The notes beneath the pieces are model-generated. The model was not told where the DNA came from. It was given only the letters and a program-made list of their open reading frames with translations, and did not search any database. Position numbers and translations under genes: made by a program. From Alphaproteobacteria bacterium (GTDB lineage Bacteria; Pseudomonadota; Alphaproteobacteria; JANQMY01), in NCBI GenBank assembly GCA_028279895.1, contig JANQMY010000498.1, positions 1 through 59,165 on the forward strand: 59,165 nt of DNA. Direction: 5' to 3'. Of this stretch, positions 32,980-36,510 are shown one piece after another; positions within the stretch are counted from its first letter, which is position 1; the number at the start of each line of letters is the position of its first letter.

Positions 32980-33414
32980 CTAGGGCGTGCGGAGCCGAAC
33001 CTGGCTTGTAGCAGTGGCCTTCACGGCTTCATTCCCGTCTAGATCAAAGAGGGTGCCCTCTAAGAACACAATGGACTTAGCCAAGCGGACCACGCGGCCC
33101 TCCACTTTCACGATGCCCGGTTTGACGGCACGAATGAAGCTTGCTTTGATCTCTAAAGAGGGTGCGTAGATTGTAAGCTGCGACTTGACGATTGCGGCCA
33201 CAGTCATGGTTTCGTCAAGAGCGGCTATCAAGAAACCGCCCTGGATTACGCCTCGGGGATTCGCGAAACGCTCGTCCAAATCGAAGCTTGCGGTCGTTGC
33301 CCCCGTTGCCAAATCGGCGTCGATAAGTTTGAAACCCAAAAGGCGAGCACCTTCTGAACCGCGGCTTTTGCCGAAGATCTCGATCACGCGCTCATTGGTC
33401 AATTCACTAGTCAA
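32980..33414 (-). CDS. PaaI-family hotdog thioesterase
   Basis: 144 aa with a NPRGVIQGGFLIAALDE motif typical of PaaI/YdiI-type thioesterases. Confidence 0.82.
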   Translation of the reverse strand: MTSELTNERVIEIFGKSRGSEGARLLGFKLIDADLATGATTASFDLDERFANPRGVIQGGFLIAALDETMTVAAIVKSQLTIYAPSLEIKASFIRAVKPGIVKVEGRVVRLAKSIVFLEGTLFDLDGNEAVKATATSQVRLRTP

Positions 33415-33483: not shown

Positions 33484-34689
33484 ATGGGAACTGAAAAACA
33501 AGCGGTCCTGTCGGGCATTCGAGTTGTCGATTTGACGTCGGTTCTGCTCGGTCCCTATTGCACGCAAATACTCGGAGATCTCGGTGCTGACGTGATCAAG
33601 GTCGAACCTCCCGAGGGAGATCTTCTGCGGTGGGGTGGCAAGTCGCCGAAGACGGAGGGCATGGGGCCGATCTTTATGAATGTAAACAGGAACAAAAGAT
33701 CGATCTGCTTAGACCTAAAACAGGATAGGGCCAAAGAGGCGCTTGTAAAGCTTATTGAAAGCGCCGACGTTTTTATCCACAACATTCGAGCGGCCGGCAT
33801 AAAGCGTTTGGGCTTTTGGTACGACGACGTAAAGAAAGTTAATCCAAATATCGTCTACGTGCATTGCGCCGGTTACGGGGCCGGCGGCGCATATGAAGGT
33901 CGCCAAGCTTATGATGACTTAGTACAAGCAGCAACCGGCACGGCAACACTGCTGCCACGATTCGACGGTAACGAAGCTCCGCGATATCTGCCTTCTCTAG
34001 TCGCAGATAAGGCGACCGGCCTTCATGCGGCTTATGCTTCGCTTGCGGGGATCATTCATCGTCTGCGGACCGGCGAAGGGCAGTTTATTGAAGTGCCAAT
34101 GATGGAGAGTTTCACTTCATTCGTTATGCTTGAACACCTGTTCGGCTCAACATATGAGCCACCTACGGGGCCGGTCGGCTACAGAAGGGTTCTCAATCCG
34201 AATCGCCGGCCCTATAGAGCGAAGGATGGATTTTTGGGTATTGTTCCTTATTCTGATGCTCAGTGGGAAGAGTTTTTTCGACTTGGGGGGCGTCGAGATG
34301 TCTTCAAAGACGAAAGGTTCGCAACATTTGCGGCGCGCACCAAGCATATTCAAGAATTGTATGCCCTTATTGAGAAGGTGGTAGCCACAAAGACGGTAGC
34401 CGAATGGCTTGACCTGCTTGCCGAGGCCAACATACCGGCGATGAAGGTGACGGATCTGAATGACGTTTTGGACGATGAGCACCTTTCAAGCGTCGACTTT
34501 TTTCAAATACTCGAGCATCCTTCTGAAGGGGCCTACCGATCAATGCGGCATCCGATATATTTTGAGAGTTCTCCGGCCTCAGTGCGTCGAGACCCGCCTC
34601 GTTTGGGCCAGGATGGAACCGCTATCTTAATGGAGCTAGGGTACTCGGAAACGGATGCCAAATCGATCGCGATGCATAAGAGGCGCTAG
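33484..34689 (+). CDS. family III CoA-transferase (CaiB/BaiF family)
   Basis: N-terminal GIRVVDLTSVLLGPYCTQILGDLGADVIKVEPP, which is characteristic of this family. 401 aa. Confidence 0.88.
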   Translation: MGTEKQAVLSGIRVVDLTSVLLGPYCTQILGDLGADVIKVEPPEGDLLRWGGKSPKTEGMGPIFMNVNRNKRSICLDLKQDRAKEALVKLIESADVFIHNIRAAGIKRLGFWYDDVKKVNPNIVYVHCAGYGAGGAYEGRQAYDDLVQAATGTATLLPRFDGNEAPRYLPSLVADKATGLHAAYASLAGIIHRLRTGEGQFIEVPMMESFTSFVMLEHLFGSTYEPPTGPVGYRRVLNPNRRPYRAKDGFLGIVPYSDAQWEEFFRLGGRRDVFKDERFATFAARTKHIQELYALIEKVVATKTVAEWLDLLAEANIPAMKVTDLNDVLDDEHLSSVDFFQILEHPSEGAYRSMRHPIYFESSPASVRRDPPRLGQDGTAILMELGYSETDAKSIAMHKRR

Positions 34690-34724: not shown

Positions 34725-35237
34725 TCACTTCTTCCGGAATGCATCAAGACTGACAACTTCGCCCGTGGTTTGCTCGTCATGTTCCGCATCGTCTTCGGCT
34801 TCCTCCGTTTCGGCTGCACCCGGTATAGGCCGGTTGGTTCCGATATCGGCCGGAGGAAGTGAGGAGGGTTTGTCCGCCATTCCTTGAACGTTGAACTGAA
34901 GCCCGAATTGAACGCTCGGATCGAAGAAACCGCTCACGGCTGCAAAGGGGACCACAAGTGTTTCTGGAACTTTGTTGAAGCGAAGACCAACGCGGAATAG
35001 ATCATCGTCTACCTCGAGACCCCAAAACTGATGCTGTAAGACGATCGTCATTTCCTCGGGATATTGGCTCTTCAAGGCAGGTGAGATTTGTACGCCATCG
35101 AAAGTGGTATCGAAGGAAATATAGAAATGATGGTCACCAGGCAGGCCGTCCGATTCTGCCTTGCGCAACGCACTGCGCACAACGCCGCGAAGAGCGTCCT
35201 GTGCCAACAAGTCGTAGCGCATTTGATCGGTCGTCAT
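34725..35237 (-). CDS. sspB: ClpXP adaptor SspB (alphaproteobacterial type)
   Basis: YDLLAQDALRGVVR...HHFYISF...MTIVLQHQFW core, an acidic linker and the C-terminal ClpX-tethering peptide VVSLDAFRKK. Confidence 0.9.
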   Translation of the reverse strand: MTTDQMRYDLLAQDALRGVVRSALRKAESDGLPGDHHFYISFDTTFDGVQISPALKSQYPEEMTIVLQHQFWGLEVDDDLFRVGLRFNKVPETLVVPFAAVSGFFDPSVQFGLQFNVQGMADKPSSLPPADIGTNRPIPGAAETEEAEDDAEHDEQTTGEVVSLDAFRKK

Positions 35238-35284
35238 TCTTGCCCCGTTGTTTGAGCGTCTACCCGCCTACGAAATCACAACAG

Positions 35285-35585
35285 TACGAACTCACCTCAA
35301 AGAGTCAATTCTTGTGAGGCGTTTTGAGTGAGGGGCTTCTGTTGCCCGGCGCCCCTCAAGCCGCGCTTACCTAAAATTAGGCAGCGATTGCCATTTCGTT
35401 ATCGTTGGCAATTGTAAAGATGGTCCGATAACGGCGGTACCATGCCGGGCAAAAGATACACCTTTAGACGCTCGTCGATCCTATTTCGCCCCCAAAACAG
35501 CCAGCCATTGTGGTCAATTGTTTGGTGGAGGCGCCGGGTACCGCCCCCGGGTCCGATACGCTTATTACGTGCTCGTTTATCGCCA
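35285..35585 (-). ncRNA. ssrA: two-piece (circularly permuted) tmRNA, ssrA. Acceptor piece about 35523-35585, intervening segment 35494-35522, coding piece about 35285-35493. Outer ends are approximate.
   Basis: On the minus strand the acceptor piece ends ...CCGGG-GGCGGUA-CCCGG-CGCCUCC-ACCA at 35523. Thirty nt downstream the coding piece starts GGGGGCGAAAUAGGAUCGACG at 35493, and its 5' strand pairs with CGCCUCC including G3:U. The tag frame GCC AAC GAU AAC GAA AUG GCA AUC GCU GCC UAA (35409..35377) encodes ANDNEMAIAA. A terminal stem-loop lies at 35295-35319, and a TATAAT box at about 35589-35594 is upstream. Confidence 0.9.
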
Positions 35586-35715
35586 TAGCCGGTGAGACCG
35601 GCACCTTTATTATAGTGTTTCTAAGCGGTTAATTAAACCCTTCATCACAGCTACATACCTGTCTTGAAAGCTGCTATTTTGTTACCTCGATTCTTTTTGG
35701 TAAATACACCGTCCC

Positions 35716-36510
35716 ATGAAGCAATATCTAGATCTTATGAAGCTGGTCCTGGAGACCGGGGCGAAAAAGGGTGACCGCACCGGAACGGGCACATTAAGTG
35801 TCTTTGGCCATCAAATGCGGTTTGATCTTGCGGATGGGTTCCCTCTTGTCACCACCAAACGCCTCCATGTGAAGTCTATAATTCATGAGCTCTTGTGGTT
35901 TCTGAGGGGCGATACGAACGTCAGATACCTTCAAGAAAATGGGGTTTCCATCTGGGATGAATGGGCAGATGAAGAAGGCGATCTGGGGCCGGTCTACGGT
36001 GCGCAGTGGCGGTCTTGGCCAGTCTCATCCGGCGGCCATGTAGATCAAATCAGTGACCTGATTTCGGATATTAAGGAAACGCCGGACTCTCGTCGCCTCT
36101 TAGTTTGTGCATGGAACGTGGCGGATATTGACAAGATGGCACTCGCGCCGTGCCACTGCCTGTTTCAGTTTTATGTGGCGGACGGCAAGCTCTCGTGCCA
36201 GCTTTATCAACGTAGCGCTGACATTTTTTTAGGCGTCCCGTTTAACATTGCCTCATACGCCTTGCTGACCATGATGATTGCGCAGGTGACCAATCTAAGA
36301 CCCGGCGAGTTTATCCATACCTTTGGGGATGCTCATCTGTATTCAAATCATTTAGAGCAGGCGAGATTGCAGTTGACGCGCGATCCGTTGCCTCTGCCGA
36401 CCATGATGCTTAATCCCCACGTGCGCGATATTTTCGGTTTCCGGTACGAAGACTTCGAACTCAGGGGATACGAAAGTCATCCCCATATTAAAGCTCCCGT
36501 CGCCGTGTAG
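35716..36510 (+). CDS. thyA: thymidylate synthase
   Basis: 264 aa with MKQYLDLM...DRTGTGT...LAPCH.LFQFYV motifs. Confidence 0.97.

What the first reader, a model, noticed from the sequence alone, without database searches (positions are those of the whole stretch)
35285..35585. Permuted two-piece tmRNA gene directly upstream of sspB, with an unusual T-loop
The 478-bp 'empty' gap between sspB and thyA contains ssrA on the minus strand in circularly permuted order. The acceptor piece ends ...CGCCUCCACCA at 35523. A 29-nt intervening segment follows, then the coding piece begins GGGGGCGAAAUAGGAUCGACG at 35493. The tag ORF encodes ANDNEMAIAA (35409..35377). Two points deserve a second look. First, ssrA sits about 57 nt upstream of, and co-oriented with, sspB, whose product delivers ssrA-tagged proteins to ClpXP. 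No U-tract terminator lies between them, so the adaptor mRNA may be made from the tmRNA precursor. Second, the T-arm reads CCGGG-GGCGGUA-CCCGG, so the T-loop lacks the canonical UUCRA sequence.
Basis: partly seen in the sequence, partly recalled or inferred. Interest (0 to 1): 0.45.

Follow-up and report, generated by a model that had tools for sequence, protein, structure and literature searches.

The report
Ordinary two-piece tmRNA beside sspB
This is a normal alphaproteobacterial split ribosome-rescue RNA gene (tmRNA) sitting, as in most of its relatives, just upstream of the adaptor gene sspB, which appears to have its own promoter, so the finding is correct but routine.

Summary
A circularly permuted alphaproteobacterial tmRNA gene lies on the minus strand between thyA and sspB (ARAGORN; Rfam RF01849, 260.6 bits against a cut-off of 50).

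Neither point flagged for a second look is unusual.
- **T-loop.** GGCGGUA is the consensus of the Rfam alpha_tmRNA model. All 60 related loci that matched my T-arm pattern carry GGCRGYA.
- **Gene order.** ssrA followed by sspB is the class norm. In 150 genomes, one per alphaproteobacterial family, 96 of the 142 with both genes have sspB within 300 nt downstream on the same strand. Another 14 have it within 5 kb.

The idea that sspB mRNA is made from the tmRNA precursor is not supported.
- The spacer holds TTGACT-16-TACTGT. It is invariant in three genomes of the genus, while its flanks and local RNA folds differ.
- The same element sits 22-43 nt before sspB in wider relatives, including two loci with no tmRNA gene upstream.
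- In Caulobacter, published mapping gives sspB its own primary start site, with little RNA coverage just before it.

It is true that no U-tract follows the tmRNA here, so minor read-through cannot be excluded. This scan has noted the same arrangement in many other genomes.

The parts
35609..35637 (-). Probable ssrA promoter: -10 TATAAT at 35614-35609, with a weak -35-like TTTAAT at 35637-35632 (17-nt spacing). The predicted start is near 35603.
   Evidence: Read from the sequence. The block from about 35647 to 35606 is nearly invariant in three genomes of the genus, while the DNA further upstream diverges. It aligns to the conserved UAUAUU of Rfam model positions 28-33. The consensus scan did not call it because the -35 is weak. 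That it is a promoter is inferred.
35523..35603 (-). Acceptor piece, about 81 nt. It has a 5' hairpin at 35602-35588, the P2 3' strands, the T-arm at 35550-35534 with T-loop GGCGGUA at 35545-35539, acceptor strand CGCCUCC at 35533-35527, discriminator A at 35526 and an encoded CCA at 35525-35523.
   Evidence: Rfam alignment, ARAGORN and sequence. The 5' end is inferred from the promoter. The length agrees with the 82-nt piece reported for S. meliloti (PMC7143759).
35494..35522 (-). 29-nt intervening segment, removed from the precursor.
   Evidence: It lies between CCA and GGGGGCG. It is the least conserved part of the gene among three genus members, apart from the U-run just before GGGGG. Removal is inferred from the family.
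35327..35493 (-). Coding piece. It holds the 5' acceptor strand GGGGGCG (G3-U pair), the P2 5' strands, the tag frame, and a terminal 8-bp hairpin at 35358-35329 with the conserved loop GGCAACAGAA.
   Evidence: Rfam RF01849 match to model position 355. The hairpin folds at -16.3 kcal/mol in the two genus relatives, which have the identical sequence. The exact mature 3' end is not known.
35377..35409 (-). Tag reading frame: GCC resume codon, ANDNEMAIAA, then the stop codon.
   Evidence: ARAGORN and sequence. The same tag-coding sequence occurs in 72 metagenome contigs. All 20 of those tested are alpha_tmRNA.
35281..35308 (-). Probable sspB promoter: TTGACT (35308-35303), a 16-nt spacer, then TACTGT (35286-35281), 43 nt before the sspB ATG.
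   Evidence: Both hexamers and their spacing are invariant in three genus members, while the spacer middle, the flanks and the predicted RNA folds differ. TTGAC[AT]-16-TAnnnT ends 23-43 nt before sspB in 13 of 18 distinct related upstream regions. The reverse-strand control gives 0 of 18 and shuffles give a mean of 0.015. The element is also present before sspB in L077 and L015, which have no tmRNA within 3 kb upstream (Rfam scan of L077). Function is inferred.
34725..35237 (-). sspB (alphaproteobacterial SspB, 170 aa), the adaptor for tmRNA-tagged proteins.
   Evidence: Pfam PF04386, E 1.4e-47. PDB 2nys (Agrobacterium homologue), E 3e-45, and 2qas/2qaz (titled 'Hypothetical protein' and 'SspB Protein'), E 1e-35. 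The C-terminus VVSLDAFRKK is identical to that of 2nys.

Best explanation
This is the organism's single, standard alphaproteobacterial two-piece tmRNA gene (ssrA), followed by the gene for the alphaproteobacterial SspB adaptor.

How the tmRNA is made (inferred from the family):
- A precursor is transcribed from a TATAAT promoter, starting near 35603.
- RNase P cuts just before GGGGGCG at 35493.
- The 29-nt intervening segment is trimmed back to the encoded CCA at 35523.
- The acceptor piece (about 81 nt) and the coding piece (about 170 nt) stay base-paired through the acceptor stem (with the G3-U pair) and helix P2.

How it works (inferred from the family):
- The RNA is charged with alanine.
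- With SmpB it enters stalled ribosomes.
- Translation resumes at GCC (35409) and adds (A)ANDNEMAIAA.
- SspB binds the tag and hands the protein to ClpXP.

The T-loop GGCGGUA is the hallmark of this family, not a deviation. The ssrA-then-sspB order is ancestral synteny of the class. sspB is most likely transcribed mainly from its own sigma-70-type promoter in the spacer (TTGACT-16-TACTGT, 35308-35281), not from the tmRNA precursor.

Shown here: the gene identities, the family-typical T-loop, the class-wide synteny, and the conservation of the promoter-like block and its linkage to sspB. Inferred: the processing steps, the transcription start sites, and promoter function in this organism.
For: - Identity: (ARAGORN; RF01849 at 260.6 bits). 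There is a single copy in the genome and SmpB is present on contig C374. SspB is supported by Pfam and PDB matches.
- T-loop: the RF01849 consensus. All 60 related loci that matched the T-arm pattern have GGCRGYA with a CCGGG/CCCGG stem.
- Synteny among close relatives: 70 of the 80 closest sspB loci have a co-oriented tmRNA within 3 kb upstream, and 63 have it within 284 nt.
- Synteny across the class: in one genome from each of 150 families, 96 of the 142 with both genes are adjacent (300 nt or less, co-oriented, sspB downstream). Another 14 are co-oriented within 0.4-4.5 kb. This is my hand tally of the places listed.
- Own promoter, within the genus: the spacer has diverged except for TTGACTCTTT...GTTCGTACTGTT, and the local RNA folds differ in each genome.
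- Own promoter, wider relatives: TTGAC[AT]-16-TAnnnT ends 23-43 nt before the sspB start in 13 of 18 distinct relatives, although the tmRNA-sspB spacers range from 89 to 408 nt.
- Own promoter, without ssrA: the same element precedes sspB in L077 and L015, where no tmRNA lies within 3 kb upstream (Rfam scan of L077).
- Caulobacter NA1000 (PMC4287350 S1 Dataset): the tmRNA start is at 2338502. sspB (CCNA_02187, ATG at 2339090) has a primary start at 2339064. RNA-seq coverage is 27 before that start and 384 after it, against about 145,000 inside the tmRNA.
- Operon map: PMC4117421 lists sspB as the first gene of its operon.
- Interrupted synteny: in lineages where other genes sit between ssrA and sspB, including an opposite-strand MarR gene in L063, sspB cannot depend on read-through.
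Against: - No transcript data exist for this organism.
- The window and its two genus relatives lack the U- or pyrimidine-rich tail that follows the last tmRNA hairpin in most relatives. No canonical terminator is found. Some polymerase may therefore run on into sspB.
- tmRNA is transcribed far more strongly than sspB. Steady-state RNA-seq coverage differs about 400-fold in Caulobacter. Even a small leak could matter.
- The -10 (TACTGT) matches the consensus at only 3 of 6 positions, and the consensus scan did not call this promoter.
- The Caulobacter sspB start is only about 2.5-fold TAP-enriched (413 against 166).
- The class-wide tally was made by hand from two tables.
Confidence: 0.85

Rival explanations
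1. ssrA and sspB form a non-coding-RNA/mRNA operon. Because no terminator follows the tmRNA, polymerase reads through. Cleavage at the tmRNA 3' end then releases an sspB mRNA, so adaptor supply is tied to tmRNA synthesis.
For: - The genes are co-oriented and 89 nt apart.
- The scan finds no terminator-like site on this strand.
- The tail after the last hairpin has 1 T in 10, the lowest bin among 155 relatives.
- The adjacency is kept in about two thirds of alphaproteobacterial families, which hints at selection on linkage.
Against: - A promoter-like block conserved in sequence and spacing lies in the spacer. It keeps a fixed distance to sspB, not to the tmRNA, and is present before sspB where ssrA is absent.
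- Caulobacter, with the same gene order, has a primary sspB start and coverage of 27 before it against 384 after it.
- Other genes interrupt the pair in many lineages.
Confidence: 0.12
2. The conserved spacer block is not a promoter. It is instead an RNA element of the tmRNA precursor, either a 3' processing site or a weak terminator hairpin (35321-35293 in the window) with its tail.
For: In the window the block can form an 11-bp hairpin of -12.8 kcal/mol, followed by a tail with some U.
Against: - The 5' strand of that hairpin is not conserved, and the three genus members fold differently.
- The whole spacer folds no better than shuffles (z = -1.1).
- In wider relatives the block lies 100-400 nt from the tmRNA end but always 23-27 nt before sspB. 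It also occurs where there is no tmRNA upstream.
- The tail is conserved as an exact sequence, not as a U-run.
Confidence: 0.03

Closest known systems
Caulobacter crescentus two-piece tmRNA (permuted ssrA; Keiler, Shapiro and Williams 2000, cited in PMC3985003; Rfam RF01849 alpha_tmRNA)
   Same: Permuted gene order, encoded CCA, a short intervening segment, the G3-U acceptor stem, a GGCRGUA-type T-loop, an ANDN... tag ending in AA, and sspB directly downstream. In Caulobacter the tmRNA start is at 2338502 and the sspB ATG at 2339090.
   Different: The tag frame here has 10 codons. The nearest sspB relatives have 12 and, from memory, Caulobacter has 13. Parts of the 3' region of the model are deleted here. 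No U- or pyrimidine-rich tail follows the last hairpin.
Alphaproteobacterial SspB (Caulobacter SspB-alpha, CCNA_02187; PDB 2QAS/2QAZ; Agrobacterium homologue PDB 2NYS; Lessner et al. 2007, cited in PMC3985003)
   Same: Pfam SspB domain over its full length. E 3e-45 to 2NYS and 1e-35 to 2QAS. The C-terminus VVSLDAFRKK is identical to 2NYS. It lies just downstream of ssrA.
   Different: In Caulobacter sspB heads an operon with a PaaI-family thioesterase and a C13 peptidase. Here an opposite-strand CoA-transferase gene follows sspB, and a 4HBT-type thioesterase lies beyond it.
Sinorhizobium meliloti tmRNA (Ulve et al. 2007, as summarised in PMC7143759) and Bradyrhizobium japonicum sra
   Same: An unstable precursor is processed into an mRNA-like piece of about 214 nt and a tRNA-like piece of about 82 nt. 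The predicted acceptor piece here is about 81 nt.
   Different: The coding piece here is shorter: about 167 nt to the end of the Rfam match.
Escherichia coli ssrA and SspB
   Same: The same pathway. From memory, the E. coli tag frame is also 10 codons (ANDENYALAA), the same length as ANDNEMAIAA.
   Different: From memory, E. coli tmRNA is one piece with a UUCGA-type T-loop, and its sspB sits in the sspAB operon, unlinked to ssrA.

Membership tests
Alphaproteobacterial two-piece tmRNA (Rfam RF01849) | Covariance-model score above the curated gathering score, over the full model | tested here: met
   260.6 bits against 50, model positions 1-355, E 1e-74. Repeated on the whole genome with a single hit.
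Alphaproteobacterial two-piece tmRNA (Rfam RF01849) | Circularly permuted order: the 3' tRNA-like half with CCA lies upstream of the 5' acceptor strand and the tag frame | tested here: met
   ARAGORN flags it as permuted (tmRNA*). RF04321 tmRNA_permuted scores 160.3 bits. CCA is at 35523 and GGGGGCG at 35493.
Alphaproteobacterial two-piece tmRNA (Rfam RF01849) | Acceptor stem with the G3-U70 alanine identity pair | tested here: met
   GGGGGCG (35493-35487) pairs with CGCCUCC (35533-35527), and the third pair is G-U. Read.
Alphaproteobacterial two-piece tmRNA (Rfam RF01849) | Family-typical T-arm CCGGG-GGCRGUA-CCCGG | tested here: met
   The window has GGCGGUA, and the Rfam consensus is GGCgGUA. 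Of 60 related loci, 54 have GGCRGUA and 6 have GGCAGCA.
Alphaproteobacterial two-piece tmRNA (Rfam RF01849) | Tag frame starting with a GCN resume codon and ending in AA plus stop | tested here: met
   ANDNEMAIAA followed by a stop.
Alphaproteobacterial two-piece tmRNA (Rfam RF01849) | SmpB partner encoded in the genome | tested here: met
   PF01668 hit, E 2e-57, on contig C374.
Alphaproteobacterial two-piece tmRNA (Rfam RF01849) | The precursor is processed into two stable RNAs | not testable with these tools
This is known for Caulobacter and S. meliloti only from the literature.
SspB adaptor (Pfam PF04386, alphaproteobacterial type) | SspB substrate-binding domain | tested here: met
   PF04386, E 1.4e-47, residues 11-162 on profile positions 2-155 of 156. 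PDB 2nys, 2qas and 2qaz.
SspB adaptor (Pfam PF04386, alphaproteobacterial type) | C-terminal ClpX-tethering tail after a flexible linker | tested here: inconclusive
   An acidic linker is followed by VVSLDAFRKK, identical to the C-terminus of the Agrobacterium homologue. That this tail binds ClpX is from my recollection of the SspB literature and was not tested here.
Non-coding-RNA/mRNA operon (ssrA-sspB co-transcription) | No promoter between the two genes | tested here: not met
   A conserved TTGACT-16-TACTGT lies in the spacer and is linked to sspB across relatives.
Non-coding-RNA/mRNA operon (ssrA-sspB co-transcription) | No terminator between the two genes | tested here: met
   No terminator-like site on the minus strand. 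The tail has 1 T in 10.
Non-coding-RNA/mRNA operon (ssrA-sspB co-transcription) | A transcript spanning both genes | not testable with these tools
In Caulobacter, coverage before the sspB start is 27 against about 145,000 in the tmRNA.

The most novel reading that the evidence does not exclude
In this genus the tmRNA gene has lost the U- or pyrimidine-rich tail that follows the last hairpin in most relatives. A small fraction of the very abundant tmRNA precursor might therefore read through the spacer. It would add to sspB mRNA made from sspB's own promoter and so couple adaptor supply to tmRNA synthesis. Taking the roughly 400-fold coverage difference in Caulobacter as a rough guide, a leak of a few tenths of a percent could rival the sspB promoter's output.
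Probability: 0.12. Interest if true: 0.3.

Novelty: already known. Interest (0 to 1): 0.08.

Why it matters
It matters little beyond annotation. The window carries a correctly recognised ssrA gene. Its family has been described since 2000 and has its own Rfam model, and its T-loop is the family consensus.

One residual question has mild interest. Alphaproteobacteria have kept sspB directly behind ssrA in about two thirds of families, even though sspB seems to have its own promoter. I found no open-access paper that states or explains this.

The comparative result here, an sspB-linked promoter block that persists where ssrA is absent, argues that the linkage is not an operon.

Tried and rejected
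- **Key papers.** Lessner 2007, Keiler 2000, Sharkady and Williams 2004, and Ebeling 1991 are not held. Whether Lessner 2007 already states the synteny could not be checked.
- **Full-text searches.** Searches for the ssrA-sspB linkage found no relevant paper.
- **Other start-site datasets.** The supplements for Bradyrhizobium and S. meliloti held no usable rows for ssrA or sspB.
- **More close relatives.** The metagenome scan with the tag-coding sequence returned 72 contigs, but all are only about 72-84% identical in the tmRNA. They served for the wider promoter comparison, not as close relatives.
- **Caulobacter sequence.** A search for the Caulobacter ssrA promoter sequence in 400 genomes of the class, meant to fetch its 3' tail, found nothing. 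Its only use was to reveal a third genome of the genus, G304.
- **Island hypothesis.** I considered that the 1-2 kb gaps between ssrA and sspB in some lineages are integrated mobile islands. The inserted genes examined are ordinary: a metal-dependent hydrolase and an M19 dipeptidase in one locus, and a MarR regulator in another.
- **Spacer hairpin as terminator.** Rejected because the fold is not conserved and is not better than shuffles.

Full report
**1. The observation**

The minus strand between thyA (35716-36507, +) and the ORF 34728-35237 (-) holds a circularly permuted tmRNA gene.
- ARAGORN reports a permuted tmRNA at 35286-35615 with tag ANDNEMAIAA.
- Rfam's alpha_tmRNA model (RF01849) matches 35327-35641 end to end at 260.6 bits, against a gathering score of 50. 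The general permuted model RF04321 scores 160.3 bits.
- The acceptor stem GGGGGCG/CGCCUCC carries the G3-U pair.
- The gene is single-copy in this genome, a 625-contig metagenome-assembled genome. SmpB is encoded elsewhere, on contig C374.
- The downstream ORF is SspB (Pfam, E 1.4e-47). Its best solved relatives are the Agrobacterium homologue 2NYS and the entries 2QAS and 2QAZ, the latter titled 'SspB Protein'.

**2. The T-loop**

GGCGGUA departs from the UUCGA-type loop of tRNAs and one-piece tmRNAs, but it is the consensus of the alphaproteobacterial family.
- The RF01849 consensus line reads CCCGGGGGCgGUACCCGG, with most letters in upper case, meaning highly conserved.
- I extracted the T-arm from the related loci with a pattern anchored on the flanking conserved bases. 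All 60 matching loci have the CCGGG/CCCGG stem.
- Their loops are GGCAGUA in 28, GGCGGUA in 26 and GGCAGCA in 6.

This point is a known family trait.

**3. The adjacency to sspB**

Among the 80 closest sspB loci in the species-representative genomes, ARAGORN finds a co-oriented permuted tmRNA within 3 kb upstream in 70. In 63 it ends at most 284 nt before sspB. Rfam confirmed 17 of the 20 loci checked.

For the whole class I searched one genome from each of 150 families with RF01849 and with PF04386, and compared the places by hand.
- 142 genomes have both genes.
- In 96 of them sspB is downstream, co-oriented and at most 300 nt from the tmRNA match.
- In 14 more it is co-oriented at 0.4-4.5 kb.
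- In 32 it is elsewhere or on another contig. A few of these are at contig ends.

In Caulobacter NA1000 the same order holds. The tmRNA start is at 2338502 and the sspB ATG is at 2339090. The window therefore shows the ordinary, ancestral gene order of Alphaproteobacteria. Earlier follow-ups in this scan reached the same conclusion on other genomes, and I re-tested it here independently.

**4. Is sspB made from the tmRNA precursor?**

- The scan finds none on this strand.
- The 10 nt after the terminal tmRNA hairpin (35358-35329) contain a single T. The mean is 4.5-5.2 T in 155 related sequences, many of which have a U- or pyrimidine-rich tail there.

But the spacer is not empty.
- I aligned the window with the two other genomes of its genus: L002, which is G140, and G304.
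- The spacer has diverged on both sides of one block, TTGACTCTTT, a variable stretch of about 6 nt, then GTTCGTACTGTT.
- This reads as TTGACT, a 16-nt spacer and TACTGT at 35308-35281.
- The hexamers and the spacing are invariant and the spacer middle varies, which is the pattern of a promoter.
- The predicted RNA folds around the block are different in each of the three genomes.
- The window's spacer folds no better than shuffled sequence (z = -1.1). That argues against a conserved RNA hairpin or terminator.

Wider relatives settle which gene the block belongs to.
- A metagenome scan with the tag-coding sequence returned 72 contigs. All 20 tested are alpha_tmRNA.
- For contigs with sspB within about 900 nt downstream of the tag, 13 of 18 distinct upstream regions carry TTGAC[AT]-16-TAnnnT, mostly TTGACT-16-TAGTCT.
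- The element ends 23-43 nt before the sspB start codon, although the tmRNA-to-sspB spacer ranges from 89 to 408 nt.
- The reverse-strand control gives 0 of 18 and shuffles give a mean of 0.015.
- The same element, TTGACT-16-TACTGT, lies 22 nt before sspB in L077 (a Rhizomicrobium MAG). A near copy lies before sspB in L015. Neither locus has a tmRNA gene within 3 kb upstream (L077 also by Rfam).

The element therefore travels with sspB, not with ssrA.

**5. Experimental precedent**

Zhou et al. 2015 (PMC4287350, S1 Dataset) mapped 5' ends in Caulobacter genome-wide.
- sspB (CCNA_02187) has a start site classed as primary at 2339064, 26 nt before its ATG.
- Mean RNA-seq coverage is 27 in the 38 nt before that site and 384 in the 38 nt after it.
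- Coverage inside the tmRNA reaches about 145,000.

Schrader et al. 2014 (PMC4117421) list sspB as the first gene of a three-gene operon. In the model organism with the same gene order, read-through therefore accounts for at most a few percent of sspB RNA.

There are two caveats. The Caulobacter site is only about 2.5-fold TAP-enriched. I also could not retrieve the Caulobacter sequence to see whether it has the U-rich tail that the window lacks.

Independently, in lineages where other genes have been inserted between ssrA and sspB, sspB must be expressed on its own. Examples are a metal-dependent hydrolase plus an M19 dipeptidase in L020, and an opposite-strand MarR gene in L063.

**6. Verdict**

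- The identification as a two-piece tmRNA next to sspB is correct.
- The 'unusual' T-loop is the family norm.
- The adjacency is the class norm.
- The co-transcription idea is contradicted by a conserved, sspB-linked promoter-like element and by the Caulobacter data.

What remains open is whether the missing U-tail in this genus lets a small share of tmRNA transcription leak into sspB. I rate the finding as already known and of low interest.

**7. Limits**

- The class-wide tally was made by eye from two large tables.
- The promoter and the transcription starts are inferred, not mapped.
- The processing steps are taken from the family literature (PMC3985003; PMC7143759).
- The primary papers on Caulobacter tmRNA and SspB-alpha were not available to read.

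Noticed in passing
window 35377-35409; loci L083-L154: The 10-codon tag ANDNEMA[IL]AA is two codons shorter than the 12-codon tags of the nearest sspB relatives (ANDNYAEARLAA, ANDNYAPVAQAA, ANDNFAPVAQAA). The same tag-coding sequence occurs in 72 metagenome contigs. Their tmRNAs are only about 72-84% identical to the window's, so the short tag marks a broad lineage.
   Followed up: partly
window 35318-35328; L002 and L156 equivalents: The window's genus lacks the U- or pyrimidine-rich tail (CACUU followed by a U/C-rich run) that follows the terminal tmRNA hairpin in most relatives. The window has 1 T in 10 nt, against a mean of about 5.
   Followed up: partly
L083, L095, L113, L119, L122, L129, L131, L132, L139, L140, L145, L146, L154 (20-60 nt before sspB): A strongly conserved block, ATTGACTC, about 14 nt, then TAGTCTC, sits at a fixed distance before sspB in the same-tag lineage. 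It is more conserved than a typical housekeeping promoter, so it may also be a regulator's binding site.
   Followed up: partly
L020:863-2923; L063:1855-2445: Where ssrA and sspB are 1-2 kb apart, the inserted genes examined are ordinary: a metal-dependent hydrolase and an M19 dipeptidase in a Parvibaculaceae genome, and an opposite-strand MarR regulator in Acuticoccus. They are not integrases or mobile islands.
   Followed up: partly
window 32983-33414 (-) and 33484-34686 (+): A 4HBT/PaaI-type thioesterase gene lies near sspB on the same strand, separated from it by an opposite-strand family III CoA-transferase gene. In Caulobacter a PaaI-family thioesterase is the second gene of the sspB operon, so this may be a remnant of a wider conserved neighbourhood.
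   Followed up: no
window 35606-35641: The first 35 or so positions of the Rfam RF01849 model align to what looks like the ssrA promoter (-10 TATAAT at 35614-35609), not to mature RNA. ARAGORN's 3' boundary (35286) runs into the probable sspB promoter. Neither tool's boundaries should be read as the RNA ends.
   Followed up: partly
loci L085-L094 and others: tblastn found sspB within about 900 nt downstream of the tag in only 21 of the 72 same-tag metagenome contigs (23 rows, counting the window and L002). Some of the rest are cut by contig ends, but many are not, so the ssrA-sspB linkage is often broken in that wider lineage.
   Followed up: no
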